This document shows, in pieces, positions 16,176 through 55,837 of a stretch of 64,000 nt of DNA. A program made the translations under genes and the position numbers. The DNA comes from Thiotrichaceae bacterium. Its GTDB lineage: Bacteria > Pseudomonadota > Gammaproteobacteria > Beggiatoales > Beggiatoaceae. The stretch's first letter is position 1. Each line of letters opens with the position of its first letter. The stretch spans positions 489 to 64,488 of the forward strand of contig JADGDF010000005.1 in NCBI GenBank assembly GCA_016745055.1, given 5' to 3'. The notes under the pieces were generated by a model. That model saw only the letters and a list, made by a program, of their open reading frames with translations. It searched no databases and had not been told where the DNA came from.

Positions 16176-17132
16176 ATGAAACTATATTTTCATATCATTA
16201 TTTTATTACTCACTTTTGGGTTAACTGCTTGTTATGAATCCCAACAAAGTATGCAATCCAACCATGTCTCTCATGAATCACCCACTATTCAAACTATATC
16301 TTCACCAAAGCTCAAAGAAATTATAGTAGCGGCCCCTTCCGTACCGCTTCCACCTTATTTTTGTCGTAATGAAAAAAAAGGTCTTGAAAAAGATATTATC
16401 AAGGAAGCATTTGAAGCAAGTGGATACTTGCCTCAATTCACGCATAAAAAAGGTAGAGAGCAAAAATTAGTTGAACTTAACTCAAAAATAGCGTGTGTGA
16501 CAACAGTTAATGAAACATCTAAGGAACTTTCTCCTAATGATGGCTATTTTTCTGAAGATATCATTGCTTACCAAGATGTTGCCATTACTTTAAAAATTCG
16601 TCAAGAACATAAGCAATTCAAGATTGAAAACATAGAAAACCTTAGAGGATTGACTGTTGAAACTTTTAATGGTGCATATAGACACTTAGGATTTGGGTCA
16701 GTGCTTGGTAAAAAGGAAAACAACCGTCGTTTTCATGAACATTCGGGTAAAGCAAGCCAAGTGATACTACTTTATCGAGGCCGTTTAGATGTGTTAATTA
16801 TTGACAAACGTGTTTTCGCTTATTTTTTTAGCACATACAAAGAGCATATAAAAGAAAAAAAATACTATAGACGGAAAAAGTTTAAATCTTTCGAACCGAT
16901 CAAAACATTTTACCCTATTGAAGATGCTATCAATGTTCATCCTATTTTCGGAGAAAATAAACCCTACAAAATTTTTTGTAAAGATGAAAAAGTGCTAAAT
17001 GATTTCAATCAAGGATTAGTCACACTTAAAAACTCTGGTAGATACCAACAAATTATTGACGAGTATCCTGAACCTGAAGGCCAACAAAATTATATGACTC
17101 TAAAAGATGATGTCTGTGATACAGAAAATTGA
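16176..17132 (+). CDS. Lipoprotein, possibly a family-3 solute-binding-protein-like fold
   Basis: Lipobox LLTFGLTAC. Weak resemblance to periplasmic substrate-binding proteins (PLPPYF...GLEKDIIKEAF). Starts 6 nt after the Met-rich ORF. Confidence 0.45.
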   Translation: MKLYFHIIILLLTFGLTACYESQQSMQSNHVSHESPTIQTISSPKLKEIIVAAPSVPLPPYFCRNEKKGLEKDIIKEAFEASGYLPQFTHKKGREQKLVELNSKIACVTTVNETSKELSPNDGYFSEDIIAYQDVAITLKIRQEHKQFKIENIENLRGLTVETFNGAYRHLGFGSVLGKKENNRRFHEHSGKASQVILLYRGRLDVLIIDKRVFAYFFSTYKEHIKEKKYYRRKKFKSFEPIKTFYPIEDAINVHPIFGENKPYKIFCKDEKVLNDFNQGLVTLKNSGRYQQIIDEYPEPEGQQNYMTLKDDVCDTEN

Positions 17133-27716: not shown

Positions 27717-29072
27717 TTAAATAAGTTGCTTAATCTCATGAGCCAAATCATTATCTCTATCCCTGTAATCAATACTCCCAGCCAAATGTTTTTCTCGTGT
27801 TACCATTTTTCTAATAATGCTCTGCCGACCGTCTAAAATAGCTGGGCTTTTATATTCTTGCCCCTTGTATTTTGGTTGACATTCCTTCCATACAGGGCCA
27901 ATTGTCTCCTCAATTATCTCTATCCTTAATTCTGGGGATAGTTTCTGAATTTTTTCAAATTGATGAGAGCTTTCTTTCTCCACGTCTTTCGGAGATTTAG
28001 GAATTCTTACATTTTCAGCAATATTCAAGTAAATTAGATTTTTTCCTTTGTGAATATTTGTTACCTCTATCCAAAAATCACCTTTCTGAGACTGATATAA
28101 AGGTTTAGTAAATTCTTTTTTAATTTCAATAATAACAGTTAAAACTGCTTGTTCAGTTATATCATAGGGTTTTGAAGTAATAAAAATAGGAAGTAACTTT
28201 TGTTCATTTTCATTTTCTTTACATATAATATAGCTTGAAACTTCGTAACGCTTGTTATCTTTTTTGCCATGATAAGTAGTTACAAAAAAATTCGAGTCTT
28301 TATCAATAGGAATATCTTGATCAACATTACGTATTTCAGCTTCATAACAAATAGTTTTAGCATTTTTATCTAAAGCCCTAACCAAAATTGTTTTTGATGG
28401 TGAAAATTTGTTTGAGATATCTTTACCGAAAATTACGATAAGGACATAATCATCTTTTTGTTTAATGCTTATATCACTTATATCGTTACATATAACATCG
28501 TAATTCTTTTCTTGAAAGTCAAAACTTTTTTGCAATTTCTTATAGAAATCTATAAAGTTAAGGTTAAACTTTCCACCTATCTTCGTATAAAGCTTTGTCC
28601 CTATATCTTCACAAAAAACCTTTATAGCATTAAGATATAAAAGGACTTCCCTGTATAAGTCTGAATTTTTTTGAGTGGTAATAATACTAGTTGCTTCTAT
28701 ATTTTTACCTCCTAAAGCATTATGCGTAAAATTTTGACTCCCTACCCAAATTTCTACTTGGTTATGTTCAAGCTCAAACACGATAAATTTTGAATGCATC
28801 AAAGGAAATCTTCCTGTTCCTTGTCTATAAAGAAACAGATAAATGTTTGCTCCTTTTTCTACAAAACTACTTAATGAATCAATATCTGTTGGTTGGTGTA
28901 TATCAACACAAAAATAAGAATCTTCATGAGCTAACTTTTCTGTCAATTCAGCAAAATAGCTTTTATCTATACTCCAAAATGCAACGGCTCCTTTTACAGA
29001 AATACATTTTGTTATAGATGTTTGCAGTCTATTTTTGATATTTCTATTTTCTTTAGATTGTAAAAATTCCAT
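27717..29072 (-). CDS. Phospholipase D-family (single HKD) nuclease-like protein with an uncharacterised C-terminal region
   Basis: 451-aa ORF. LMHSKFIVFELEHNQVEIWVGSQNFTHNAL = HxK(x)4[D/E]...GSxN within the first ~165 aa. The remainder is K/E/I-rich without recognisable motifs. Markedly AT-richer than its neighbours. Confidence 0.7.
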   Translation of the reverse strand: MEFLQSKENRNIKNRLQTSITKCISVKGAVAFWSIDKSYFAELTEKLAHEDSYFCVDIHQPTDIDSLSSFVEKGANIYLFLYRQGTGRFPLMHSKFIVFELEHNQVEIWVGSQNFTHNALGGKNIEATSIITTQKNSDLYREVLLYLNAIKVFCEDIGTKLYTKIGGKFNLNFIDFYKKLQKSFDFQEKNYDVICNDISDISIKQKDDYVLIVIFGKDISNKFSPSKTILVRALDKNAKTICYEAEIRNVDQDIPIDKDSNFFVTTYHGKKDNKRYEVSSYIICKENENEQKLLPIFITSKPYDITEQAVLTVIIEIKKEFTKPLYQSQKGDFWIEVTNIHKGKNLIYLNIAENVRIPKSPKDVEKESSHQFEKIQKLSPELRIEIIEETIGPVWKECQPKYKGQEYKSPAILDGRQSIIRKMVTREKHLAGSIDYRDRDNDLAHEIKQLI

Positions 29073-44702: not shown

Positions 44703-44953
44703 TTTTATAAAGTTGGGTCTATTTTAACAGTTCATATACAAACTCGCTATGTTCAAAAAAGCAATAAACAATGATATTTTCCCATCTAAAATTAGGAGTT
44801 TTTCCTAATAGTAGACCATATAGGATTTAGTTTAGGCCATTGGTCAATTAGTTGTTGTTTTTTTATACGATATTAGCTAAATTTTAAACATGCATTGAAT
44901 AAATGCTAATATTTTTTAAGCTTATTTCTTACACTTTTAGAGGGTTGTTCAAC

Positions 44954-47314
44954 ATGAAAAAAAGTCTGCTGTCAATGGCTATTAGTTTAGCTTTACTCAG
45001 TAGCAGCGTTATCTCCTCTGGAGAAGCGTTTGCAGCTGATCCTCCCCCACCTCCTAATGGTATGAATCCTCCTGGCGGTATGGAAGGTGGTATGAATCCT
45101 CCTGGTGGTATGGAAGGTGGCATGAATCCTCCTGGTGGTATGGAAGGTGGCATGAATCCTCCTGGCGGTATGGAAGGTGGCATGAATCCTCCTGGCGGTA
45201 TGGAAGGTGGCATGAATCCTCCTGGTGGTATGGAAGGTGGCATGAATCCTCCTGGCGGTATGGAAGGTGGTATGAATCCTCCTGGCGGTATGGAAGGTGG
45301 TATGAATCCTCCTGATGGTATGGAAGGTGGTATGAATCCTCCTGGTGGTATGGAAGGCGGCATGAATCCTCCTGATGGTATGGAAGGCGGCATGAATTCT
45401 CCTGATGGTATGGAAGGCGGCATGAATCCTCCTGATGGCATGGAAGGCGGCATGAATCCTCCTGGTGGCATAGAAGGCGGCATGAATCCTCCTGGTGGCA
45501 TGGAAGGCGGCATGAATCCTCCTGGTGGCATGGAAGGCGGCATGAATCCTCCTGATGGCATGGAAGGCGGCATGAATCCTCCTGATGGCATGGAAGGCGG
45601 CATGAATCCTCCTGATGGCATGGAAGGCGGCATGAATCCTCCTGACGGTATGGAAGGTGGCATGAATCCTCCTAGTGGTATGGAAGGTGGCATGAATCCT
45701 CCTGATGGTATGGAAGGCGGCATGAATCCTCCTAGTGGCATGGAAGGCGAACATGGTGGTCCTAAGCCCAGACCGATGAAACCAGGTAAACGTTTGGAAG
45801 AAGTGGGTATTGATCCGCGTGAAATGAGCGAAAATGATATCAGTAAAATGCCTCCAGAATATGCTGAAAGATTTGATGGTGATGACATTAAGATGATGTC
45901 TCCAGAAGCAGTTAAAGGCTTCAAGGGAGAACACACAAAAAAAATGCCACCTAAAGCCATGCGAGAGTTTGGTCCAGAACATGCACCCCATATGGACAAA
46001 GATGCTATTAAAGGGTTTGGGCAAAATATAGGTGAATTACGTGGTGATTTTCTGCAAAATTTGGATAATGACCAAATTGGTGGATTAGGTGAAATTTCTG
46101 ATGAAGAAGTTAAACAAATGTCAGAAAGAGATAAAGCTAAAATCCTTGCGAATGTTGATCCTGACAAACATCCTGAAATTATTGCTATTTTCGCACCACC
46201 AGGTTGGGAAATTGGCCAAGGTAATAATACAGGTAAACGTCCTCCTTTAACTCCCATGATGTTACCGGGTAAAACAGGCGAAAAAGTGGATGGCTTGAAA
46301 ATGCCTGAAATGCCTGATATGAAAAAAGGGTTTGGTTTAGGCGGTAAACCTGAAGAAGGTTGTAAAGAAGCTTGTGATGCTGAATCAGGTATGAATAAAG
46401 TACTTGGTCCATTTAAAGCTAAACAAAAAGATGATGGTATTTTAGATGTGCAAGGACCTGAAGGCGAACAATTTGGTTTTGTACCCGATCCTGAAAATAT
46501 GCGGCAAGCACCTGATGGTACGCCACCTGGTGTTAACCAAAATGAAGAAGGTCAGTATGTTATTATTACTGAAGATGGCAAAGAAATACCTGTTGATCCC
46601 GCACCAATTGATCCTGAAGGTGTTTTAAATGCAATCAATGACGGCGCTACTGATGAAGGTGGCCGTGTAGAAATGCAAGAACGCGGTTCAATGCGTATGG
46701 AATTGCCTCCTGGGCAAGATAAAAAACGCCGTACTGTGAACTGTGTATTTGATTTTCCTGTCTTTGATGCACCACCAGACATGAAACCTGGTTTGCATAT
46801 TGATGATGGTGAAAATGAAGGCACAATGGTGTATGAAGATGGTAAAGCGCAACGCGTGAAACCCATGATTCAAAAACCAGATACCTTCAAAGACACCGCT
46901 AAGAAATTCCCAGGCGTCAAAGACCCTAAAGTCAGACCCGATGGTAGAATTGAAGTCACTTACCAAGATGAAGGGATGCCAAAACCGTTAATTATTATTT
47001 TAAGACCTGGTTTTGATGTACAACCTCCTCCCGATGATCAAGTGGGTCAACCTTTTGAACCTGGGATTGAACCATCAGAAAATGATGGAGAACTCATCTT
47101 TACAGATGATGAAGGTAATCAACAACCAGTGGTCATTGAAGGCATTGAAGACATTCCACCACCTCCACCTGTAAATGGAAACCCTGGTGAAAATCCTACA
47201 CCACCAGAACCTCCAGCAGGGGAAAATACTTTACCAGACGAAATTCTAGATGAAGGTAATATTGAGGAGCCACCGCCACCACCTCCAGAACCTATTGTAG
47301 ATGATTCTGTTTAA
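44954..47314 (+). CDS. Secreted repeat protein: signal peptide + 23 x MNPP[G/D/S]GMEGG decapeptide repeats + acidic/Pro-rich C-terminal region
   Basis: MKKSLLSMAISLALLSSSVISSGEAFA signal peptide from the ATG at 44954. In-frame 30-bp tandem array. C-terminal PPPPP tracts. The track start at 44903 adds 17 residues before the signal peptide. Confidence 0.75.
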   Translation: MKKSLLSMAISLALLSSSVISSGEAFAADPPPPPNGMNPPGGMEGGMNPPGGMEGGMNPPGGMEGGMNPPGGMEGGMNPPGGMEGGMNPPGGMEGGMNPPGGMEGGMNPPGGMEGGMNPPDGMEGGMNPPGGMEGGMNPPDGMEGGMNSPDGMEGGMNPPDGMEGGMNPPGGIEGGMNPPGGMEGGMNPPGGMEGGMNPPDGMEGGMNPPDGMEGGMNPPDGMEGGMNPPDGMEGGMNPPSGMEGGMNPPDGMEGGMNPPSGMEGEHGGPKPRPMKPGKRLEEVGIDPREMSENDISKMPPEYAERFDGDDIKMMSPEAVKGFKGEHTKKMPPKAMREFGPEHAPHMDKDAIKGFGQNIGELRGDFLQNLDNDQIGGLGEISDEEVKQMSERDKAKILANVDPDKHPEIIAIFAPPGWEIGQGNNTGKRPPLTPMMLPGKTGEKVDGLKMPEMPDMKKGFGLGGKPEEGCKEACDAESGMNKVLGPFKAKQKDDGILDVQGPEGEQFGFVPDPENMRQAPDGTPPGVNQNEEGQYVIITEDGKEIPVDPAPIDPEGVLNAINDGATDEGGRVEMQERGSMRMELPPGQDKKRRTVNCVFDFPVFDAPPDMKPGLHIDDGENEGTMVYEDGKAQRVKPMIQKPDTFKDTAKKFPGVKDPKVRPDGRIEVTYQDEGMPKPLIIILRPGFDVQPPPDDQVGQPFEPGIEPSENDGELIFTDDEGNQQPVVIEGIEDIPPPPPVNGNPGENPTPPEPPAGENTLPDEILDEGNIEEPPPPPPEPIVDDSV
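45062..45751 (+). repeat. Tandem repeat, 30-bp unit x 23, in frame within the CDS
   Basis: Unit atgaatcctcctggYggtatggaaggYggY repeated head-to-tail without spacers. Variants are confined to a few positions (ggc/ggt/gat/gac/agt at codon 5; ggt/ggc wobble; one tct; one ata). Confidence 0.95.
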
Positions 47315-47442: not shown

Positions 47443-47515
47443 GGTCGGATAGCTCAGTTGGTAGAGCAAGGGACTGAAAATCCCTGTGTCGGTGGTTCGA
47501 TTCCACCTCCGACCA
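47443..47515 (+). tRNA. tRNA-Phe (anticodon GAA)
   Basis: 73-nt cloverleaf. Acceptor GGTCGGA/TCCGACC, D-arm GCTC-AGTTGGTA-GAGC, anticodon arm AGGGA-CTGAAAA-TCCCT, variable GTGTC, T-arm GGTGG-TTCGATT-CCACC, discriminator A. CCA is not encoded. Confidence 0.95.
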
Positions 47516-47536
47516 AAGACGCTTTAGTTAATATCA

Positions 47537-47812
47537 ATGAAATATTATTCTGTTCATATTTTTTTCTTACTTATTTTTACTTCCCCATTATTCTACTTGT
47601 TTTTTGTATCAAACAATAATTCCCATGCCATTGCAGCAGTTCAAGCACTGATGATTATGTATGGTGCAATATGGTTTTTCTACGCTACAACGACTAGTGT
47701 TATTTTTCATGTTTTTAGTATAAAAACTTCAACTGTTGCAATTATTCATTCAATCACATTAGTTGTTATTAGCAGTACTGCTTTATGGTTTTTATATGGG
47801 ACAACGTCTTAA
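47537..47812 (+). CDS. Small hydrophobic protein (about 3 TM helices), hypothetical
   Basis: 91-aa ORF, very AT-rich, starts 22 nt after the tRNA. No homolog recognised. Confidence 0.35.
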   Translation: MKYYSVHIFFLLIFTSPLFYLFFVSNNNSHAIAAVQALMIMYGAIWFFYATTTSVIFHVFSIKTSTVAIIHSITLVVISSTALWFLYGTTS

Positions 47813-48047
47813 TTTGTAAATTCCAACATCTTTCCAAAAAACGATTATCTTTCATGATTACTCTGCTGTCAGTTACTTTACCTAAGTAGTAGCTTTCTCT
47901 CCTATTTGACTTCTGTTATTCATCTCGCATAATTTATAGACATTAGTGGGAAAAAATTTGGTGGTTCGTACCAAATTAATTGCCTATAAAAATAAAAAGC
48001 GTATCATAATTACACAATTTTCAGCCTAAAATTAAACTATTTTCAAT

Positions 48048-49292
48048 ATGCATATCCAACGTATTCAAGTACCCAATTTCCGTGTTTTACAGAATGTGGA
48101 CATTACTTTTGAAAAAGAGTTTATGCCCCGTATTTTTCCATTGGGTAGTGAGAATGGTGGTGGTAAAAGTACATTATTGCAGTTAGTTTTTATTTTATTG
48201 CATTGTTCTGCCCACGAGAATAGAAAGGAGTATATTCAGAATTTGTTGGAAGATTTTGATGTACCAGAGGGTGAAACGACTAGGGAATTAGCTAAATTTG
48301 AGATTTGGGATGGGGAAAAGACAGTTGAATTGGCATTTTCAGTTTGTAATGATGATTTTCTCAATGATTTATCTAAAGTTTATAATGAAGAATTCTCATT
48401 CGTAGACCTTGCGATAGTTAGTTTATCGAAAAAATTTGAATATATTAAAAATAATCAAGAAATGGTTGATGTAGATCCGTCAATGCGAAAGCGATTTATG
48501 GCTGCAAAAAGAATATTAGAATATTTACAAAATTATGGCTTATTGTTCATTACCTATTATAGTGATAGTCTAAGTGAATATAACATTTTAGTCTGTTCAA
48601 CCAGCAATCACAATAAAAAAGAGGACTCAGACATAGAAAGTATGTTGCTTGAGATTTCTTCCCAAGTTCATTTGGCAGCACCTTCTTCTCATGTTTACTT
48701 GTTTTTCACACAAAAAAATAGGCAAGCTTTATTTGTGCAAAATGCTTGGAATGAGTATATTAATCAGTTGTTGAAGGCAAAAGAGAAATTACCCAATTTT
48801 TTTATTCATAATTTTTTATTAGTTGATGCACTTTTAAAAACTTTTCAATATGCTAGAGACAAAGACTTTAAGCAAGCTATTGAAACAAATAATTATGGAA
48901 ATTATTATATTAATGTACTAAAAGATTTAAGTTATCTTTTAGGTAATAAAAAAATAACACCCAGCCCTGAATTGGACAGAATTATTGTCAAGCAAGAAAC
49001 ACCTCAAGGAGAGATGGAGTTAGGCCCAGAAGATTTGAGTCATGGTGAAATCAAAAAACTCAGTATTTATGTTTGGTTGAAATATATTATCGGTGAAAAT
49101 GCTATTGTACTCGTCGATGAAATAGAAAATACCTTACATCCTGATTGGCAATATCAAATGGTAGATAATTTAAAAGAGTGGGGGCCAAATAATCAATATA
49201 TTTTAGCAACGCATTCCTACGATGTTTGCCAAGCCTTAACACCAGCCCATGTCAAAGAGTTAGAACCAAAATTACTCAAAAATAATCCATAA
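48048..49292 (+). CDS. ABC/SMC-type (AAA_21/AAA_15-like) ATPase, OLD/AriA/AbiLi-like
   Basis: 414-aa ORF. N-terminal IQRIQVPNFRVLQNVDITF strand pair, Walker A GSENGGGKSTLLQ, signature-like LSHGEIKKL, Walker B/D-loop IVLVDEIENTLHPD, H-loop ILATHS. A ~270-aa insert lies between Walker A and the signature. Confidence 0.75.
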   Translation: MHIQRIQVPNFRVLQNVDITFEKEFMPRIFPLGSENGGGKSTLLQLVFILLHCSAHENRKEYIQNLLEDFDVPEGETTRELAKFEIWDGEKTVELAFSVCNDDFLNDLSKVYNEEFSFVDLAIVSLSKKFEYIKNNQEMVDVDPSMRKRFMAAKRILEYLQNYGLLFITYYSDSLSEYNILVCSTSNHNKKEDSDIESMLLEISSQVHLAAPSSHVYLFFTQKNRQALFVQNAWNEYINQLLKAKEKLPNFFIHNFLLVDALLKTFQYARDKDFKQAIETNNYGNYYINVLKDLSYLLGNKKITPSPELDRIIVKQETPQGEMELGPEDLSHGEIKKLSIYVWLKYIIGENAIVLVDEIENTLHPDWQYQMVDNLKEWGPNNQYILATHSYDVCQALTPAHVKELEPKLLKNNP

Positions 49293-49294
49293 AA

Positions 49295-50248
49295 ATGAGT
49301 CTTTCAGAGCAAGAGCTAACAATCCATTGCCAAAGAATTTTAGAGCAATCCCGAATCAGAAATAAGATTGTTTTACTGTGCGAAGGACAAATTCAACACT
49401 TCAAAACGCAACACTTTTCCCCTCACAGTTACAAACAATTAGATCAATTACCTGATTGCAATTTTTATAAAGCCTGTATTCCACGAGAGTATTCTCCCAA
49501 TTTTTTTCAATGTTTCACTTGTGGCAGTAGAAAAACGGTATTACAAGCTTACTCTAAGTTACAAGAACTACATGCCCAGAATCCTCAAAAATCTTGGTTA
49601 AATCCAGATAAATTGTTTGCTCTGGTTGATTTGGATATTCAAATAGAAAAAATTGATAATTACCTATTTTCAAACACTGAAGAAATTTTTTACGACTTAT
49701 ATCAGGAAAATAAATTCAACGTAAGAAACTCATCTAGCCACCGCATTTTCGTGACAGGACTAATTCATAAAGAAGCTTACTTTTTTATTCCAGAACTCCA
49801 GGAAATATTTGATAATTGTGTACACCAGCCAACATTTGAAAATAATCCACTAAATCTCCAAAATATTTACCAAAAAATGGTTGAAACATTAGAAGAAGAT
49901 AAAGATTTAAAAAATAGTTTTCAAAAAATGGCTGAAAGGATAGCCTATTGTGAGTTACTGGATAGCAACTCAATTGAAACACTACAAGAAACCATTTTAG
50001 ATAATTTGGGAAATTCTCAAGTTATTAATGCTTTGTTAACTATCGCAAAATCTAAATTTTACTGGGAAAAACACATCCAGTTTTCAGAGTATGATAACGA
50101 CAGTATCACTAGAGAAATATTTCGTGAACAATTATTATTTAAAGTTGCAGAATTTTACAAAAATCAGTCAGAAGAAAGTACTTTACATATTCCAGCGTTA
50201 ATTCGCACGTTACATCAACTGTCTTTCACAACCCAATCTACCGTTTAA
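49295..50248 (+). CDS. Toprim-like partner protein (DUF4435/RloB-type, AriB/AbiLii-like)
   Basis: 317-aa ORF starting 2 nt after the ATPase stop. Ordered motifs KIVLLCEGQ (Glu30-Gly), CGSRKT, ALVDLDIQ (DxD), HKEAYFF. The assignment rests on motif order only. Confidence 0.5.
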   Translation: MSLSEQELTIHCQRILEQSRIRNKIVLLCEGQIQHFKTQHFSPHSYKQLDQLPDCNFYKACIPREYSPNFFQCFTCGSRKTVLQAYSKLQELHAQNPQKSWLNPDKLFALVDLDIQIEKIDNYLFSNTEEIFYDLYQENKFNVRNSSSHRIFVTGLIHKEAYFFIPELQEIFDNCVHQPTFENNPLNLQNIYQKMVETLEEDKDLKNSFQKMAERIAYCELLDSNSIETLQETILDNLGNSQVINALLTIAKSKFYWEKHIQFSEYDNDSITREIFREQLLFKVAEFYKNQSEESTLHIPALIRTLHQLSFTTQSTV

Positions 50249-50939
50249 ACACCGAGCGATGTGAATGCAATCTCATTCTTTTCAAAGCACTTACCCATAA
50301 TATAATGATGTAAGGAATAAATAATAAAAATAACCATTCATTTTCTGCCATCAAAATGAAATCATATAGGCCATGTAAAATAATAGGGATGCAAAGTGCT
50401 AGAAATAAATATCTGATACGGTGTTTGGGTTCAAATTTGGCTAGTCCCAAATAATACCCCATAGCAACACCAAATAAGGCATGAGCAGGCACTGCCGTTA
50501 TGGCACGTAGCATACCGACGACCATGCCACCATTATTTGAATGGAAAACGTAAAGTACATTTTCGACGGCAGCAAAGCCAAGCGAGATAAAAACAGCGTA
50601 AATTATCCCGTCAAATAATTCATTAAAATGTTTATTCTTCCAAAAATAGAAAAATGCTATATATTTGAAGGTTTCCTCTGTCAATGCTGCCACAATAAAG
50701 GCAACATAGGCAGCACTGGCTAATACTGCCAAGTCTCCAGTAAATAATTTACCAAACTTCATTTCCCAATATTTGCCCAGCCAAATTTCAACATAAATAA
50801 CGGGAATAACGATCAATGCCCCTAATAACAACGCAATGATCAACAGGCCAATGGGTTCTTTTTCGTACTTATCATGCCAATAGACATAAAGGGCAAGAAT
50901 TAAAATAGGCGCAAATGTAATAAAAAGTAGCAATTCCAT
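50238..50939 (-). CDS. PrsW-family intramembrane glutamic/metalloprotease-like protein
   Basis: 233-aa polytopic ORF. YVYWHDKYEKEP, EETFKY, HALFG, HGLYDF, the signature blocks of the PrsW family. Its 3' end overlaps the convergent ORF 49295-50248 by 11 bp. Confidence 0.7.
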   Translation of the reverse strand: MELLLFITFAPILILALYVYWHDKYEKEPIGLLIIALLLGALIVIPVIYVEIWLGKYWEMKFGKLFTGDLAVLASAAYVAFIVAALTEETFKYIAFFYFWKNKHFNELFDGIIYAVFISLGFAAVENVLYVFHSNNGGMVVGMLRAITAVPAHALFGVAMGYYLGLAKFEPKHRIRYLFLALCIPIILHGLYDFILMAENEWLFLLFIPYIIILWVSALKRMRLHSHRSVFKR

Positions 50940-50979
50940 TGTATTTACCGCAAATGATGATAAGTTATTTGCTTGTTAA

Positions 50980-53688
50980 CTAAAGTTTTCTCGCAACAGA
51001 AATTCGTTCGTAAACTTCAATTTGGTCACCCGCTTTTATATCATTGTAATTTTTGACGCCAATACCACACTCTGTTCCAGATTTGACTTCATTCACATCA
51101 TCTTTAAAGCGGCGTAATGAATCCAGTTCCCCTTCAAAAATAACGACATTATCTCTTAGAACACGGATAGGACTACTGCGTTTGATTGTGCCATCGACGA
51201 CTAAACAACCGGCAACTGAACCAAACTTCGGTGAACGGAACACATCTCTGACTTCAGCTAACCCAATGATTTCTTCTCTAATTTCAGGGCTTAACATACC
51301 ACTAATGGCTTTTTTCACCTCATCAATGGCTTCATAAATCACACTGTAATAGTGTAAGTCGACCTCTTCTTCTTTAATAACTCGTTTTGCAGCCAAGTCA
51401 GCCCGCACATTAAAACCAATGATAATTGCGGCTGAGGCAACAGCTAAGTTTACGTCAGATTCGGTAATACCACCAACGCCACTGGCAACAATATTCACCC
51501 GCACTTCATCTGTTGATAATTTAACTAACGAGTCATAGAGGGCTTCAGCAGAGCCATTTACATCTGCTTTTAATACAATATTCAGATTGCTGACTTCTCC
51601 AGTATGCATTTGGGAGAATAAGTTTTCAAGTTTTGCAGCATGTTGTCTTGCGAGTTTGACTTCGCGATATTTACCTTGGCGGAATAAAGCAACTTCTCTG
51701 GCTTTTCTTTCATCAGAGACAACAATCACTTCATCCCCAGCGCTTGGCGTACCAGATAAGCCCAATGCTTCAACAGGAATGGAAGGACCTGCACTCATTG
51801 TTTGCTTGCCATTTTCATCTAACATAGCACGTACGCGACCAAATTCTTGGCCAGCCAGCAAAATATCGCCTTTACGCAAGGTACCACTTTGGACTAATAA
51901 GGTCACCACGGCGCCACGGCCTTTATCAAGCCGAGATTCAATCACAATGCCTCTCGCCATGCCTTCTACCACTGTCTTTAATTCAAGCACTTCTGCTTGT
52001 AATAAAATGGTTTCTAACAGCGCGTCAATACCTTCACCTGTTTTAGCTGAGACACTAGCAAACATGTGTTCTCCACCCCACTCTTCTGGGACAACTTCAT
52101 ATTGTGTTAGCTCTTGTTTAACACGATCAGGATCAGCATCTGGTTTATCAATTTTATTAATTGCAATAATTAATGGTACACCTGCAGCCTTAGCATGTTG
52201 AATAGCCTCAATGGTTTGGGGCATCACACCATCATCAGCAGCAACCACTAAAATAACAATATCAGTGACTTTTGCACCACGCGCCCGCATTGCTGTAAAT
52301 GCAGCATGACCAGGCGTATCTAAGAAGGTAACCATACCTCTGGGCGTTTCTACGTGATAAGCCCCGATATGTTGAGTAATCCCACCCGCTTCTCCAGCCG
52401 CTACTTTGGTAACTCTAATATGATCAAGCAGCGAAGTTTTACCATGATCAACGTGACCCATAATCGTGACAACAGGCGCACGGGAGACTAATTCACCATG
52501 CTGTTGCATGGCTTGCATCACTTCGTCTTCAATAGCATTTTCTTTAAGCAGTTTAGGCACATGGCCCATTTCTTCAACCACAATAGTGGCTGTTTCTTGA
52601 TCAAGAATTTGATTAATTGTGGCCATTGAACCCATTGTCATCATAGCTTTGATAACTTCAGTTGCTTTAATGGACATCTTTTGTGCCAATTCAGCAACTG
52701 TCAAGGTTTCTGGTAACATTACTTCATGAACAATGGGAGCCGTCGGTTTTATAAAGCCATGCTGTGGCTCTGACGCTTTTGTCCGTTTTTTACGTTTACG
52801 TTGTTTAGGCGCATTGTCAGTTTCAGCCGCTTGGAGTTCTTGACGCCCATACTTTTCAGACTTATTTTCTTTAAGTTTTTTAGTCTTACTTTCTTTAACA
52901 GGTGCTTTAGGTGCAACTTTTAGCGCGGGTTTCTTTTTAGGCTTCACATCTTTGGCAGGTGGTTTACCCGCTGCAGTTTTTTCTGAAGTACCAGCCTCTT
53001 TACTCTTTGTTTGAGTTTGAGGAGGCCGGCTACTTCTATTTACCGTTGTTGTGCCAGAAGTTCTTCGCCTATTGTCTTGCGAAGGTTGCCTAGTTGTTGA
53101 ACGAGGTGAACTTTCGCTTTTAGTTGATTTTTGATCTTTTGGTGTATGCGCCGAAGAAGAAGTTGTTGTAGCCGCTGATTCTGTTAACCTGGTAGCTTCA
53201 GCAGGTTGAACAATTTCTGTCGCTTTCTCTGCATTAACTGGTTTCTTTGAAGGATTAGAAGGATTTTTCAAAGCTTCTTCTTGACGTTTAATTTCTGCTT
53301 CAACTTCAAAATGAGCAGCTTCTAGCCTTTCTTTTTCAGCTTTTAGCCTCTGCTGTTCGACTTCATTAATAACTGCCCGCTTAACATAGGTACGTTTTTT
53401 TCTAACTTCAACAGTAACGGTTTTTGCACGTCCTTGAGTGCTTGCGACCTTTATTTCACTATGCGTTTTACGTTTTAAAGTGATTTTCTTGGGTTCGGAG
53501 GAAGTCGAAACTTCTGTATCTTTGCCATGAATATGCCGGAGATGATTTAAGAGTTGTAGTTTCTCTTTATCATTAATATTATCTTCCGCCGCTTTTTTTG
53601 CTAGCCCAGATTCACCCAACTGCGTCAACAAACGTTCTACAGGAATGCCTACTACATCTGCAAATTGCTTTACCGTCACTTCTGCCAT
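50980..53688 (-). CDS. infB: Translation initiation factor IF-2
   Basis: 902-aa ORF. G domain [21 protein letters not shown]. The basic, low-complexity N-terminal region is typical of IF-2. Confidence 0.97.
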
Positions 53689-53842
53689 ATTAACTTCTCA
53701 AATTACCTGTTTAAGCGTTCAACACTTCAGCATGTTGACTCGACCAAATATGTCATAAAATAAATAAAAACAATTTCATTGCACAGTCGTGCAAATTTTT
53801 TTATTTTATCACACCTACAAAATTAGATATAAAAAACTGACA

Positions 53843-55336
53843 TTAAGAAGCTTGTTTTTCCTCTTCAAACCAAGGCGCTCTGGCTGCCATAATTAACTGG
53901 CTGGCTTTTTCATTGTCAATGCCTTCAATTTCCATTAATTCATCTGTTGATTGCTCAGCCAAATCATTCATAGTGACAATGCCCCGTCCTGCCAATATAC
54001 GAGCAAATGCTTCTGTCATGCCTTCCATATTAAGCAAATCTTCAGAAGGTGTTGTATCGTCCAAGAGCTCCTCGTTTGCAATCGCGCGCGTTAATAAAGC
54101 ATCTTTAGCACGCCCACGGAGTTCTTCAACTGTATCTTCATCCAAATCATCAATTTCCAACATCTCATTGAGCGGCACATAGGCAATTTCTTCTAAGGTT
54201 GAAAAACCTTCATCGACTAAAAGTGCTGCAACATCCTCATCAATAGTCAGTTGGGAAATAAATAAGTTTTTGAGCGTTGATTCTTCTGCATTATGTTTTT
54301 CTTCTGCTTGTGATTCAGTCATCACGTTCAAAGTCCAACCTGTCAGCTGGCTAGCAAGACGTACATTTTGTCCACCTCTGCCAATAGCTTGGGACAATTG
54401 GTCTTCTTTAACCGCTACATCCATACTGTGTGCTTCTTCATCTAAAATAATAGAAATCACTTCAGCAGGTGACATTGCATTAATGACATATTGTGCAGGA
54501 TTATCATCCCACTCAATAATATCAACCCGTTCACCAGCAAGTTCATTTGATACGGCTTGAACTCTTGAGCCTCGCATGCCAACACAGGCACCTACTGCAT
54601 CAATTCTTGGGTCTTGCGCGCTCACCGCAATTTTTGCGCGCGATCCTGGATCGCGAGCAGCACTAAGAATTTCAATCAGTCCTTCACCAATTTCGGGCAC
54701 TTCTAATGTAAATAATGATATAAGCAGCTCTGGTGCAGCACGACTTAGAAAAATTTGAGGGCCTCTTGCTTCAGGCCGGACAAGTTTTAAGTAGCCTCTT
54801 AAACGATCTCCTACTCGTACAGGCTCTTTAGGGATCATTTCTTCACGAGAAATAAATGCTTCCGCATTATTGCCTAAATCTAAAGTGATATTACCGCGTT
54901 CCATGCGTTTCACAACACCATTAACAAGCTCACCTTGTCTGTCTAAAAAGGCATCAACAACTTTGGCTCTTTCAGCCTCACGAATTTTTTGAACAATGAC
55001 TTGTTTAGCGGTTTGTGCGCCAATACGATCAAAACCAACGGACTCAATTATTTCTTCAATAAAGCCTTCTAACTCAACGCTTGGCTGTTTTTCTCTGGCT
55101 TCTTCTAAAGTCAACTGCCTTTCAGGGGAAATTACTTTATCAACAACTTCCCAGCGACGAAAAGTGGTATAATCGCCCGTATATTCATCAATGGCAACTC
55201 GCACATCAATATTATTGGCATGTCGTTTTTTAGTTGCACTTGCCAATGCACATTCTAGGGCATCAAAAATAATCCACTTATCAACCCCTTTTTCGTTAGA
55301 CACCATGTCCACGACTAAGAGAATCTCTTTATTCAT
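53843..55336 (-). CDS. nusA: Transcription termination/antitermination factor NusA
   Basis: [19 protein letters not shown]1 and KH domains ([26 protein letters not shown]), C-terminal acidic repeats. ATG at 55336 preferred over the TTG at 55354. Confidence 0.95.
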
Positions 55337-55384
55337 AGCCGTTGCCTTTACCAATCAATGATTCTTATTTTAAAAGGGGTATTT

Positions 55385-55837
55385 TTATTCGTATATAATA
55401 TGTGCTTTTTCGACTTGTTCATAAAGGAAATGGTAGGTTTTGTCTTCAACTACAAGCACTAGGTTATGATCTTCTACAGCTTGTAACAAGCCTTTAAAAT
55501 TGCGTCGATTGTCTTCTAATGGCTGTGACAATCGAACATATATTTTGTGACCAATATAGCGTTGGAAATGTGCTAAGGTAAATAAAGGTCTTTCTACGCC
55601 AGGGGAAGATACTTCTAAAGTATATTGTCCAGTAATAGGGTTTTCAACATCTAATAGGCCATTTATTTGGTGACTCACTTTTTCACAATCATGTATAACA
55701 ATGCCATCGGGGCTATCAATGTAAACACGTATAAGTAACCCACGTTTACCTAGTGATAAGCGCTCCACAGCGACTAACTCATAGCCTAGAACAGAAATAA
55801 TTGGCATAAACAATGATTGTAAATGATTATCTAACAA
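55385..55837 (-). CDS. rimP: Ribosome maturation factor RimP
   Basis: 150-aa ORF immediately upstream of nusA. GYELV..E.......LR.YID...G....DCE.VS......LD.....I...Y.LEVSSPG..RPL. Confidence 0.9.
   Translation of the reverse strand: MLDNHLQSLFMPIISVLGYELVAVERLSLGKRGLLIRVYIDSPDGIVIHDCEKVSHQINGLLDVENPITGQYTLEVSSPGVERPLFTLAHFQRYIGHKIYVRLSQPLEDNRRNFKGLLQAVEDHNLVLVVEDKTYHFLYEQVEKAHIIYE

What the first reader, a model, noticed from the sequence alone, without database searches (positions are those of the whole stretch)
47516..50250. tRNA-Phe-adjacent AT-rich islet with a translationally coupled ABC-type ATPase + Toprim-like pair, a candidate PARIS/AbiL-class or unclassified anti-phage module
Location: directly 3' of tRNA-Phe lies a visibly AT-richer ~2.7-kb segment with three + strand ORFs. 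It is wedged between housekeeping blocks (hisE-tatABC and the repeat protein on the left, prsW-infB-nusA-rimP on the right).

ATPase: ORF 48048-49292 has Walker A GSENGGGKSTLLQ, signature LSHGEIKKL, Walker B/D-loop IVLVDEIENTLHPD and H-loop ILATHS. A ~270-aa insert separates Walker A from the signature. This is the SMC/RecF/OLD-type ABC ATPase layout.

Partner: two nt after its stop, ORF 49295-50248 begins. It shows, in order, KIVLLCEGQ (Glu30-Gly), CGSRKT, ALVDLDIQ (DxD) and HKEAYFF. That is the motif order of Toprim-like DUF4435/RloB proteins.

Precedents: split ATPase + Toprim pairs are the architecture of PARIS (AriA/AriB) and AbiL (AbiLi/AbiLii). Fused versions are OLD nucleases and Gabija GajA. 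Outside the motifs I see little I recognise, so this may be a divergent or new member.

Extra ORF: a 91-aa three-TM ORF (47537-47812) sits between the tRNA and the ATPase. It could be an accessory or effector component.
Basis: partly seen in the sequence, partly recalled or inferred. Interest (0 to 1): 0.8.

Follow-up and report, generated by a model that had tools for sequence, protein, structure and literature searches.

The report
Unclassified ATPase plus nuclease-like gene pair
Next to a tRNA gene in a giant-sulfur-bacterium-like genome sits a tightly coupled pair of genes, an ABC-type ATPase and an unannotated protein that looks like a distant cousin of the PARIS anti-phage nuclease; the pair is shared mainly with filamentous cyanobacteria and probably forms a so-far unclassified branch of a known type of defence system.

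Summary
**Observation.** It is accurate: tRNA-Phe (47443-47515), a 91-aa ORF, a 414-aa ATPase (48048-49292) and a 317-aa partner starting 2 nt later (49295-50248).

**ATPase.** It is a bona fide AAA_15/AAA_21 ABC ATPase. Its catalytic motifs are conserved and its central insert is hypervariable.

**Partner.**
- It matches no model in Pfam, NCBIfam, PADLOC or PHROGs. It belongs to a compact family of about 165 representatives among 1.84 billion proteins, mostly from filamentous cyanobacteria.
- It follows the ATPase directly in 80 of 83 loci.
- Its family-invariant acidic residues are E30, D54, D112, D114 and E160. They align with the Toprim residues of the PARIS nuclease AriB.
- AriB is the only notable PDB fold hit, and calibrated profile comparisons are weakly positive.
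- Against this, true AriBs hit PADLOC's AriB model and this family does not. A domain-only fold search also found no Toprim.

- The 91-aa ORF is not part of the cassette.
- prsW is probably foreign too.
- The locus has no integrase or att repeat.
- The AT-richness is mild.
- In cyanobacteria the pair is often a long-resident, fast-evolving locus next to an aminotransferase gene.

**Verdict.** This is most likely a new family within the ATPase + Toprim-like (PARIS/AbiL/OLD) class. Its function is untested.

The parts
47443..47515 (+). tRNA-Phe (GAA). It marks the left edge of the variable segment. No duplicated 3' end was found downstream.
   Evidence: ARAGORN; Rfam tRNA, 74 bits; no att-like direct repeat.
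47537..47812 (+). 91-aa hydrophobic orphan ORF. It is probably not a component of the cassette, and it is uncertain whether it codes for a protein.
   Evidence: ORF list. No hit in Pfam, PADLOC, NCBIfam or PHROGs. No equivalent gene is called directly upstream of the ATPase in most other loci inspected; L005 has an unrelated-looking 140-aa gene there. A gene caller did call it in the same strain's ENA contig.
47906..47933 (+). Sigma-70-like site (TTGACT, 16-nt spacer, CATAAT) about 115 nt upstream of the ATPase. It is a candidate promoter only.
   Evidence: Consensus scan. The number of sites in the region is not above the shuffled expectation.
48048..49292 (+). ABC-type ATPase (AAA_15/AAA_21), 414 aa. 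It is the presumed sensor or scaffold subunit.
   Evidence: Pfam AAA_15, 62.9 bits over residues 1-391, and AAA_21, 40.8 bits. PDB sequence search: PtuA 1.7e-9 (C-terminal residues only); AriA 2.4e-5 over residues 168-395. 120 close homologues, mostly cyanobacterial.
48144..48182 (+). Walker A / P-loop GSENGGGKSTLLQ (contains K40).
   Evidence: Read from the sequence; at least 95% conserved across 120 homologues.
48315..48587 (+). Hypervariable central insert of the ATPase (residues about 90-180). It is a candidate trigger-sensing region.
   Evidence: The mean top-residue frequency is 0.42-0.49 here against 0.84-0.86 in the catalytic lobes. Family lengths range from 356 to 516 aa. The analogy is with AriA's poorly conserved trigger-facing pore residues (PMC11464382).
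49035..49145 (+). ABC signature LSHGEIKKL and Walker B/D-loop IVLVDEIENTLHPD.
   Evidence: Read from the sequence; conserved.
49200..49217 (+). H-loop ILATHS.
   Evidence: Read from the sequence; conserved.
49290..49297 (+). Gene junction: TAA stop codon, 2 nt, then ATG. It indicates tight, probably translational, coupling.
   Evidence: Sequence. Across 80 loci the spacing is mostly -4 (18 loci), +2 (13), +8 (8) or -11 (6) nt.
49295..50248 (+). Partner protein, 317 aa. It belongs to an unannotated family and is inferred to be a divergent AriB/DUF4435-like Toprim nuclease (the effector).
   Evidence: No HMM hit. Family of 392 clusters at 90% identity, and 165 representatives among 1.84 billion proteins. 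AlphaFold2 model: pLDDT 88, pTM 0.87. Top PDB fold hit is AriB chain 8ux9_A: E 4.2e-3, probability 0.89, TM 0.29. hhalign against AriB-1, P 0.0012; against an 8-sequence DUF4435 profile, P 0.008 and above every shuffle.
49382..49387 (+). E30-G31, directly after strand beta1. It is the putative catalytic Toprim glutamate, equivalent to AriB E26.
   Evidence: Invariant in 60 sequences spanning the family. Secondary-structure position from the model. Aligned with AriB's FEG motif. AriB E26A abolishes defence (PMC11464382).
49454..49456 (+). D54, aligned with AriB D30. A family-specific insertion of about 20 residues separates it from E30.
   Evidence: Invariant; hhalign register.
49628..49636 (+). 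D112-L113-D114, the DxD motif directly after strand beta3. It is equivalent to AriB D88/E90.
   Evidence: Invariant; secondary structure; hhalign register.
49766..49774 (+). H158-K159-E160, after strand beta4. E160 is equivalent to AriB E122.
   Evidence: E160 is invariant; H158 and K159 are at least 90% conserved. hhalign against B185 AriB aligns GLIHKEAYFF with GHSLENYFF, at a weak P of 0.055.
50238..50939 (-). prsW-family intramembrane protease gene. It converges on the partner gene and overlaps it by 11 nt. It is probably also acquired and part of the same variable junction.
   Evidence: Pfam PrsW-protease, 3e-40. The closest genomic relatives are Bacteroidales, Chlorobiota and Clostridia at 60% identity or less. 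Relatives carry rbfA-truB-rpsO-pnp after infB instead, and those genes are absent from the window.

Best explanation
The segment carries a two-gene conflict (defence or abortive-infection type) module with the ABC-ATPase + Toprim-like nuclease architecture. That class includes PARIS, AbiL/RloAB and the OLD/Gabija nucleases.

Shown:
- Gene 1 is an AAA_15/AAA_21 ABC ATPase with intact Walker A, signature, Walker B and H-loop motifs and a hypervariable central insert.
- Gene 2 is a member of an unannotated 310-320-aa family that almost always follows this ATPase within a few nucleotides and co-varies with it.
- Gene 2 has an alpha/beta N-terminal domain. Its five family-invariant acidic residues (E30, D54, D112, D114, E160) sit at strand ends, in the order and register of AriB's metal-binding Toprim residues.

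Inferred, by analogy with PARIS:
- The two proteins are made in coupled fashion and form a complex in which the ATPase holds the nuclease inactive.
- A trigger from an invading element is sensed through the variable insert of the ATPase.
- The ATPase then uses ATP to release or activate the partner.
- The partner cleaves nucleic acid with Mg2+ (tRNA in the case of PARIS) and arrests the cell or the invader.

Evolutionary inference:
- The module is ancient and locally resident but fast-evolving in filamentous cyanobacteria.
- It reached this Beggiatoaceae-like gammaproteobacterium by horizontal transfer. It landed at a rearranged junction between tRNA-Phe and a truncated rimP-nusA-infB operon.
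For: ATPase identity:
- Pfam AAA_15 at 62.9 bits over the full length, and AAA_21.
- The longest alignment to any solved structure is to AriA, residues 168-395.
- Motifs are at least 95% conserved and the central region is hypervariable.

Linkage:
- An ATPase homologue lies directly upstream in 80 of 83 loci, typically spaced -4, +2 or +8 nt.
- The best ATPase hits and the best partner hits come from the same contigs.
- ATPase and partner identities co-vary (rho 0.76).

Partner as an AriB-like Toprim:
- Invariant E30, G31, D54, D112, D114 and E160.
- beta1-E and beta3-DxD topology in a confident model (pLDDT 88).
- AriB (8ux9_A) is the single outstanding PDB fold hit: E 4.2e-3 and probability 0.89, with the next hit at E 0.16.
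- DUF4435 is the only Pfam family hit recurrently by family members (9 of 60, best 1.5e-4).
- hhalign against AriB-1 gives P 0.0012 with EG, D54 and DxD in register.
- hhalign against an 8-sequence DUF4435 profile scores 26.6, against a shuffled null of 14.2 +/- 2.4 (maximum 20.2, 0 of 30) and 12.8 for the reversed alignment.
- E160 aligns with AriB E122.
- The solved B185 AriB itself fails Pfam DUF4435 by hmmscan, so a Pfam miss is not exclusionary.

Conflict-type evolution:
- Where DapL is at least 95% identical, the partner averages 82% and the ATPase 76%.

Horizontal transfer:
- Homologues are mostly cyanobacterial, while the host's InfB is Beggiatoaceae-like.
- The nearest relative of the pair (79% / 67%) sits in a different neighbourhood.
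- Relatives of the host lack the pair at this locus.
- Gene exchange between Beggiatoa and filamentous cyanobacteria is documented (PMC1951784, PMC6390638).
Against: - No significant HMM-level hit of the window protein, or of the family consensus, to DUF4435, RloB, DUF4276, TOPRIM_OLD or any PADLOC, NCBIfam or PHROG model.
- PADLOC's AriB model detects all three real AriBs and none of the 41 family members scanned.
- An exhaustive HMMER profile search does not bridge to DUF4435. A local DUF4435 HMM gives nothing significant (best E 0.24).
- The fold match to AriB has a TM-score of only 0.29. A search with the N-terminal domain alone found no Toprim protein at all (best E 0.045, generic alpha/beta folds).
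- The profile comparison with a 3-sequence AriB alignment gave only E 0.09.
- The family was not found in the phage or plasmid collections or in IMG/VR.
- In complete cyanobacterial genomes the neighbours are mostly housekeeping genes rather than defence genes, and the upstream gene is often the same.
- No phenotype data exist.
Confidence: 0.58

Rival explanations
1. The pair is a resident cellular module of filamentous cyanobacteria, such as an ATP-regulated RNA or DNA processing or repair nuclease, and not an immune system. The copy in this window is a one-off horizontal acquisition with the same cellular role, or with no role at all.
For: - The pair occupies a fixed locus directly downstream of the same aminotransferase gene in 17 of 42 informative loci. 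These include Nostocales and Microcoleus genomes.
- Its divergence tracks DapL divergence (rho 0.75), which indicates vertical inheritance.
- Neighbours are mostly housekeeping genes.
- The family was not found on phages, plasmids or viral contigs.
- No defence HMM recognises the partner.
- Toprim nucleases include housekeeping enzymes such as RNase M5.
Against: - Both genes evolve several-fold faster than the adjacent housekeeping gene: 76-82% identity where DapL is at least 95% identical.
- The ATPase has a hypervariable insert, as defence sensors do.
- More than half of the informative loci have other neighbours.
- The pair occurs in unrelated contexts and in a gammaproteobacterium.
- Characterised AAA_15/AAA_21 + Toprim pairs such as PARIS and AbiL are defence systems (PMC11464382).
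Confidence: 0.2
2. The partner is not a Toprim nuclease at all. It is a different alpha/beta enzyme or an adaptor whose acidic residues serve another function, paired with a generic AAA_15 ATPase. Such ATPases combine with many effector types.
For: - The domain-only Foldseek search found no Toprim.
- The full-length match to AriB has TM 0.29 and RMSD 13.8 A.
- All HMMER-level tests were negative.
- hhalign probabilities are low, at 5-19%.
- AAA_15/21 ATPases pair with HNH, DUF262, UvrD and RT partners among others (PMC11464382, Fig. 6c legend).
Against: - The five invariant acidic residues lie in the same order, strand-end positions and alignment register as AriB's E26, D30, D88, E90 and E122.
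- AriB is the top PDB hit out of 350,542 chains.
- DUF4435 is the only recurrent Pfam hit.
- The hhalign score exceeds all 30 shuffles.
- The top 12 weak HMM hits all fall in one register.
Confidence: 0.14
3. The pair is a toxin-antitoxin-like addiction module that is maintained selfishly. The partner is the toxin and the ATPase the antitoxin, with no trigger sensing and no benefit to the host.
For: - Tight coupling and strict co-occurrence.
- One group describes PARIS itself as a toxin-antitoxin system in which AriA is the antitoxin (PMC10802264; PDB entry names).
- The AAA_21 description mentions the AbiEii type IV TA system.
Against: - The family was not found on the plasmids or phages searched.
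- Long vertical residency at one chromosomal site is not what an addiction module needs.
- The hypervariable ATPase insert suggests recognition of changing ligands.
- In B185 PARIS, deletion of either gene was non-toxic (PMC9122126).
Confidence: 0.08

Closest known systems
PARIS (AriA/AriB; OLD-family class 4)
   Same: - Two adjacent same-strand genes: an AAA_15/AAA_21 ABC ATPase followed by a protein of about 300 aa.
- The ATPase has conserved catalytic lobes and a variable insert.
- The partner has an E-G motif after beta1, an aspartate a short way downstream, a DxD/E motif after beta3 and a glutamate after beta4, all aligning with AriB's E26, D30, D88, E90 and E122.
- AriB is the best PDB fold hit.
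- ATPase and partner co-evolve, as reported for AriA and AriB.
   Different: - The partner fails Pfam DUF4435 and PADLOC's AriB model, and real AriBs pass the PADLOC model.
- The partner has two family-specific insertions, at about residues 32-52 and 115-148.
- The ATPase is shorter than B185 AriA (414 aa against 464).
- No fused AriAB-like form exists among the best 150 of 165 family representatives, none of which exceeds 347 aa.
- The family was not found on phages, satellites or plasmids.
- In cyanobacteria it is often a fixed chromosomal locus.
- The trigger, the target and the complex architecture are unknown.
AbiL (AbiLi/AbiLii) and Campylobacter RloAB; the 'unnamed two-gene system of Nostoc sp.' (Makarova et al. 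2011, as cited in PMC10802264)
   Same: - A split ABC ATPase plus a Toprim/OLD-like second gene.
- All are described as structurally distinct from PARIS, which shows that several families share this architecture.
- The Nostoc system shares the cyanobacterial host range of this family.
   Different: - No RloB (PF13707) or DUF4276 hit.
- PADLOC's AbiLii model hit only 1 of 41 members, at E 0.03.
- Whether the Nostoc system is this very family could not be checked, because the paper is not held.
OLD nucleases (class 1, e.g. P2 Old) and Gabija GajA (class 2)
   Same: An ABC ATPase coupled to a Toprim-type metal-dependent nuclease with E and DxD motifs.
   Different: - In those proteins both domains are fused in one polypeptide and carry the TOPRIM_OLD domain (PF20469).
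- Here the two are separate genes, there is no PF20469 hit, and no OLD or GajA structure appeared in the fold searches.
Septu / retron-associated PtuA ATPases
   Same: The best PADLOC and PDB sequence scores for the ATPase are to PtuA models (4.8e-22 and 1.7e-9). The two share the AAA_15 C-terminal lobe.
   Different: - The matches cover only about the last 60 residues.
- NCBIfam PtuA scores 68.9 bits against a cut-off of 500.
- The partner is not an HNH PtuB.
- There is no reverse transcriptase or retron ncRNA.

Membership tests
PARIS (operational rule of Rousset et al. 2022, PMC9122126) | ATPase scoring at least 32 bits on AAA_15 or at least 27 bits on AAA_21 | tested here: met
   AAA_15 62.9 bits and AAA_21 40.8 bits.
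PARIS (operational rule of Rousset et al. 2022, PMC9122126) | Adjacent protein scoring at least 27 bits on DUF4435 (PF14491) | tested here: not met
   No PF14491 hit for the window protein or the family consensus, even at E up to 5. Only 9 of 60 family members give sub-threshold hits, the best at E 1.5e-4. Caveat: the solved B185 AriB also fails this test with the current Pfam model, while AriB-1, the P2-hotspot AriB and a C. perfringens AriB pass.
PARIS (PADLOC-DB 2.0 models) | Partner matches an AriB model (PDLC02983) | tested here: not met
   0 of 41 family members and no hit for the consensus. The positive controls, B185 AriB, O42 AriB and the P2-hotspot AriB, hit at 4.7e-9, 1.4e-15 and 4.5e-18.
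PARIS | Toprim metal-binding acidic residues (AriB E26, D30, D88, E90, E122) conserved in the partner | tested here: inconclusive
   E30, D54, D112, D114 and E160 are invariant in the family. They align in register in hhalign, but the alignments are only weakly significant: P 0.0012, 0.008 and 0.055.
PARIS | Partner shares the AriB fold | tested here: inconclusive
   The full-length model's top PDB hit is AriB 8ux9_A (E 4.2e-3, probability 0.89) but with TM 0.29. The N-terminal domain model finds no AriB or Toprim protein.
PARIS | Two-gene cassette whose ATPase and nuclease co-evolve | tested here: met
   80 of 83 loci are adjacent on the same strand. Identities co-vary, rho 0.76, though phylogeny confounds this.
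PARIS | AriA hexamer sequesters AriB; a phage trigger (Ocr) releases an AriB dimer that cleaves tRNA | not testable with these tools
   This needs biochemistry, cryo-EM or multimer modelling, and phage assays.
OLD family nucleases, class 1/2 (P2 Old, GajA) | Single polypeptide with an N-terminal ABC ATPase and a C-terminal TOPRIM_OLD domain | tested here: not met
   The two functions are on separate genes. There is no PF20469 hit. No family member among the best 150 of 165 representatives exceeds 347 aa.
AbiL / RloAB | Second gene of the RloB (PF13707), DUF4276 or AbiLii type | tested here: not met
   No such Pfam hits. PADLOC's AbiLii model hit 1 of 41 members at E 0.03.
Septu / retron PtuAB | PtuA equivalog ATPase plus an HNH PtuB (with or without RT and ncRNA) | tested here: not met
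   NCBIfam PtuA scores 68.9 bits against a cut-off of 500, and the matches are local. The partner has no HNH domain. No retron RNA is present.
tRNA-integrated genomic island | Integrase gene and a direct repeat of the tRNA 3' end at the far border | tested here: not met
   No integrase-sized ORF lies between 47516 and 50980. No repeat of the tRNA 3' end was found.

The most novel reading that the evidence does not exclude
This is a distinct, previously unclassified class of ATPase + Toprim-like system. Unlike phage- and satellite-borne PARIS, it has become a long-term, vertically inherited chromosomal locus in filamentous cyanobacteria, next to an aminotransferase gene, while still evolving at arms-race speed. 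It is exchanged among filamentous mat-forming bacteria, here into a giant-sulfur-bacterium relative. Its two lineage-specific insertions in the nuclease and its own ATPase insert could give it a trigger and a nucleic-acid target different from those of PARIS.
Probability: 0.25. Interest if true: 0.6.

Novelty: new variant of a known kind. Interest (0 to 1): 0.45.

Why it matters
If confirmed, this would add a family of about 400 sequence clusters to the ATPase + Toprim defence class. None of Pfam, PADLOC, NCBIfam or PHROGs currently detects it.

The family is concentrated in ecologically important filamentous cyanobacteria (Microcoleus, Nostoc, Coleofasciculus, Rivularia) and also occurs in a relative of the large sulfur bacteria. 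Few anti-phage systems have been studied experimentally in these groups.

It would also give a natural test of how far the PARIS mechanism (sequestered nuclease, trigger-induced release, tRNA cleavage) extends across the class. And it would be an example of a fast-evolving conflict module that stays at a fixed chromosomal site.

The practical lesson is that HMM-based defence finders miss such families. The founding B185 AriB itself escapes the current Pfam DUF4435 model.

Tried and rejected
1. **Library scans of the partner.** Pfam, NCBIfam, PADLOC and PHROGs gave nothing. The Cas8b and TadZ hits are short and spurious.
2. **PDB sequence searches.** Neither the partner nor its profile gave a relevant hit.
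3. **BFVD viral fold library.** Nothing.
4. **Domain-only AlphaFold2 model and Foldseek.** This was meant to sharpen the Toprim signal. It returned only generic alpha/beta folds, so it is counted as evidence against.
5. **Profile comparison with a 3-sequence AriB alignment.** Weak (E 0.09), probably because the AriBs are only 16-25% identical and align poorly.
6. **Harvesting DUF4435 homologues.** Plasmid tblastn gave 2 hits. Viral contigs gave no relatives for the AriB alignment or for B185 AriB, and 8 loci for the other two AriB seeds. Only an 8-sequence profile could be built.
7. **Local DUF4435 HMM against the family.** Not significant.
8. **PrsW as a handle on related genomes.** That result itself suggests prsW is foreign.
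9. **Classical tRNA-integrated island.** Rejected: no integrase and no att repeat.
10. **Retron or Septu reading.** Rejected: the PtuA matches are local, and there is no HNH domain, reverse transcriptase or ncRNA.
11. **The 91-aa ORF as a system component.** Rejected, because it does not co-occur with the pair elsewhere.
12. **Strong compositional anomaly.** Rejected: GC3 lies within the host's range.
13. **Literature.** Makarova et al. 2011 and Krishnan et al. 2020 could not be read.

Full report
**1.

ARAGORN and Rfam place tRNA-Phe(GAA) at 47443-47515 on the + strand.

Three + strand ORFs follow:
- 47537-47812 (91 aa)
- 48048-49292 (414 aa)
- 49295-50248 (317 aa)

The third ORF starts 2 nt after the TAA stop codon of the second.

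The segment is AT-richer than the window: GC 0.29-0.33 against a window mean of 0.369. The anomaly is mild, though. The cassette's third-position GC (0.26) lies within the spread of the window's other long ORFs (0.19-0.35), and other genes are equally AT-rich.

The left flank is HisE, TatA, TatB, TatC and a repeat protein. The right flank is prsW, infB, nusA and rimP.

**2. The ATPase**

ORF 48048-49292 matches Pfam AAA_15 over its full length (62.9 bits, above the 32.1-bit cut-off) and also AAA_21.

PADLOC and NCBIfam give their best scores to PtuA models. Those matches cover only the C-terminal lobe, and the NCBIfam PtuA score (68.9 bits) is far below that model's cut-off of 500.

Among solved structures, the longest alignment is to the PARIS ATPase AriA, over residues 168-395 at E 2.4e-5.

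Across 120 close homologues, the Walker A, signature, Walker B and H-loop positions are at least 95% conserved. Residues about 90-180 are hypervariable, and family lengths range from 356 to 516 aa. AriA's trigger-facing pore residues are likewise poorly conserved (PMC11464382).

**3. The partner is an orphan by HMM, but it is a real and sharply bounded family**

ORF 49295-50248 has no significant hit in Pfam, NCBIfam, PADLOC, PHROGs or PDB sequences.

It does have 392 homologous clusters at 90% identity. Where these carry a taxon name they are mostly from filamentous cyanobacteria (Microcoleus, Coleofasciculus, Argonema, Nostocales, Rivularia, Richelia), and all are annotated as hypothetical.

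An exhaustive HMMER profile search of 1.84 billion representative proteins found only 165 members. About 70 of them are full length, and none of the best 150 listed is longer than 347 aa, so no fused forms were seen.

Across the whole family, which reaches down to about 28% identity, these residues are invariant: L28, C29, E30, G31, D54, F57, D112, D114, E160, R215, K254 and W257.

**4. Linkage to the ATPase**

- In 80 of 83 loci an ATPase homologue lies directly upstream on the same strand. Two of the three exceptions are truncated by contig ends.
- The spacing is mostly -4, +2, +8 or -11 nt. The tight coupling seen in the window is therefore a family trait.
- ATPase and partner identities co-vary (rho 0.76).

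**5. Is the partner a Toprim/AriB-like nuclease?**

Evidence for:
- (a) A confident AlphaFold2 model (pLDDT 88, pTM 0.87) shows an N-terminal alpha/beta domain. E30-G31 comes right after beta1, D112-x-D114 right after beta3, and H158-K159-E160 right after beta4. That is the canonical Toprim placement. A helical C-terminal domain follows.
- (b) Foldseek against 350,542 PDB chains returns one notable hit: chain A of 8UX9, which is AriB in the PARIS complex (E 4.2e-3, probability 0.89). The next hit is at E 0.16.
- (c) DUF4435 is the only Pfam family hit recurrently by individual family members: 9 of 60, with the best at E 1.5e-4.
- (d) I took validated AriB sequences from the supplement of Rousset et al. 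2022.
  - hhalign of the family profile against AriB-1 gives P 0.0012. It puts LCEG opposite FEG, D54 opposite the aspartate at E+4, G77 opposite G, and VDLD opposite VDQD.
  - hhalign against B185 AriB aligns GLIHKEAYFF with GHSLENYFF, which pairs E160 with catalytic E122. This one is weak, at P 0.055.
  - hhalign against an 8-sequence DUF4435 profile scores 26.6. The column-shuffled null is 14.2 +/- 2.4 with a maximum of 20.2, and 0 of 30 shuffles reach the real score. The reversed alignment scores 12.8.
  - The family's five invariant acidic residues thus correspond one-for-one to AriB's E26, D30, D88, E90 and E122 (PMC11464382). The family also carries two insertions of its own, at about residues 32-52 and 115-148.

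Evidence against:
- PADLOC's AriB model detects all three genuine AriBs (5e-9 to 5e-18) but none of 41 family members, nor the family consensus.
- A local DUF4435 HMM gives nothing significant against the family. Its top 12 weak hits do all fall in one register.
- A search with only the N-terminal domain model finds no Toprim protein.
- The TM-score of the full-length AriB match is only 0.29.

One control matters here. The solved B185 AriB itself gets no Pfam DUF4435 hit by hmmscan. A Pfam miss therefore does not exclude an AriB-type protein.

My reading is that the partner is a distant relative of AriB/DUF4435 that forms its own family. It is supported at the profile-profile and motif level but not proven.

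**6. Genomic setting in this genome**

InfB is 60-68% identical to the InfB of Thioploca, Beggiatoa, Thiomargarita and related genera. The host is therefore a divergent Beggiatoaceae/Thiotrichales-like gammaproteobacterium known only from metagenome assemblies.

In Thioploca, Beggiatoa and a related contig, infB is followed by rbfA-truB, and in two of the three by rpsO as well. In the window those genes, and pnp, are absent from all 64 kb, and prsW takes their place.

The nearest relatives of this PrsW among 185,579 species genomes are Bacteroidales, Chlorobiota and Clostridia, at 60% identity or less. The variable junction is therefore about 47516-50979, and it probably holds two separate acquisitions that meet tail to tail with an 11-nt overlap.

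The segment contains no integrase, no att-like repeat of the tRNA 3' end and no structured RNA other than the tRNA.

The 91-aa ORF has no homologue and is absent next to the pair in other contexts. I do not count it as a component.

**7. Setting elsewhere**

The closest relative of the pair (partner 79%, ATPase 67%) sits in a different neighbourhood on an unnamed contig. Rivularia, a marine MAG and Richelia each show different flanks again.

There is also conserved synteny:
- In 17 of 42 loci with enough upstream sequence, the pair lies directly downstream of the same aminotransferase gene. These loci include Nostocales HT-58-2 and Microcoleus vaginatus. From memory, the N-terminus looks like DapL.
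- At that locus, divergence of the pair tracks divergence of the aminotransferase (rho 0.75), which points to vertical inheritance.
- Both cassette genes nevertheless evolve several-fold faster. Where the aminotransferase is at least 95% identical, the partner averages 82% identity and the ATPase 76%.
- Neighbours are mostly housekeeping genes.

The family was not found in the phage or plasmid collections or in IMG/VR.

This profile, a long-resident locus that is fast-evolving, co-varying and occasionally transferred, fits a chromosomally fixed conflict system. It also keeps alive the rival that the pair has a cellular role in cyanobacteria.

Transfer between filamentous cyanobacteria and Beggiatoaceae is documented (PMC1951784, PMC6390638).

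**8. Mechanism (inferred)**

By analogy with PARIS (PMC11464382, PMC10802264, PMC12409363):
- The ATPase probably binds and silences the nuclease.
- It senses an invader-derived trigger through its variable insert.
- It then releases or activates the partner in an ATP-dependent way.
- The partner cuts nucleic acid with Mg2+, using E30, D54, D112, D114 and E160.

The target (tRNA in PARIS), the trigger and the stoichiometry are unknown.

**9. Comparison and novelty**

The system works like PARIS, AbiL or RloAB, and more distantly like OLD and Gabija. It fails the sequence-model definitions of each of them (see the membership table).

Deep et al. note that AbiL, RloAB and an 'unnamed two-gene system in Nostoc sp.' (Makarova et al. 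2011) are ATPase + Toprim systems structurally distinct from PARIS (PMC10802264). The present family could be that Nostoc system, but I could not read the 2011 paper.

I therefore rate it a new variant of a known kind. It is of moderate interest, with no experimental evidence of function.

Noticed in passing
window 44903-47314: An 803-aa protein with a signal-peptide-like N-terminus and about 30 tandem copies of a 'GMNPPGGMEG' decapeptide. The repeat zone has GC of about 0.55 in a genome of 0.37. The protein also has a long C-terminal part and no Pfam hit.
   Followed up: partly
window 50238-55804; compare L075, L076, L077: The conserved rimP-nusA-infB-rbfA-truB(-rpsO-pnp) operon is cut right after infB. 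The genes rbfA, truB, rpsO and pnp are absent from the entire 64-kb window, and a prsW gene occupies rbfA's place on the same strand.
   Followed up: yes
window 50238-50939: The closest relatives of this PrsW among 185,579 species genomes are Bacteroidales, Chlorobiota and Clostridia MAGs (60% identity or less), and none is gammaproteobacterial. This suggests prsW was acquired separately. Its 3' end overlaps the partner gene's 3' end by 11 nt, and the two genes converge.
   Followed up: partly
L082, L167, L168 and 14 other loci (e.g. L167:7148-10948): In many filamentous cyanobacteria the ATPase-partner pair lies directly downstream of the same aminotransferase gene of about 412 aa (DapL-like). 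This synteny is conserved across Nostocales and Oscillatoriales. The pair evolves several-fold faster than that neighbour.
   Followed up: yes
E. coli B185 AriB sequence (supplement of PMC9122126): The founding, structurally solved AriB gets no hit to Pfam DUF4435 (PF14491.11) by hmmscan at E up to 5. It does hit PADLOC's AriB model at 4.7e-9. Detecting PARIS with Pfam alone would miss it.
   Followed up: yes
L166:946-3388 (C. perfringens plasmid NZ_CP148608.1): This is a textbook PARIS pair (AAA_15 56.8 bits, DUF4435 116.5 bits). Its AriA-like ATPase carries an N-terminal IF2_N domain, and the record annotates it as an 'IF-2 N-terminal domain-containing protein'.
   Followed up: partly
window 27717-29072 and 16176-17132: Other long ORFs in the window have GC as low as the cassette (0.296 and 0.330). 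They may be further acquired genes, or they may simply show that low GC is not diagnostic in this genome.
   Followed up: no
L168:10974-12546 and L169:14047-15463: Near the pair, some cyanobacterial genomes carry small HTH_3 regulators, a Uma2-family endonuclease, an HTH-Peptidase_M78 (ImmA/IrrE-like) pair and a Dam-type methyltransferase. These are weak hints of mobile or defence-type neighbours at some loci.
   Followed up: no
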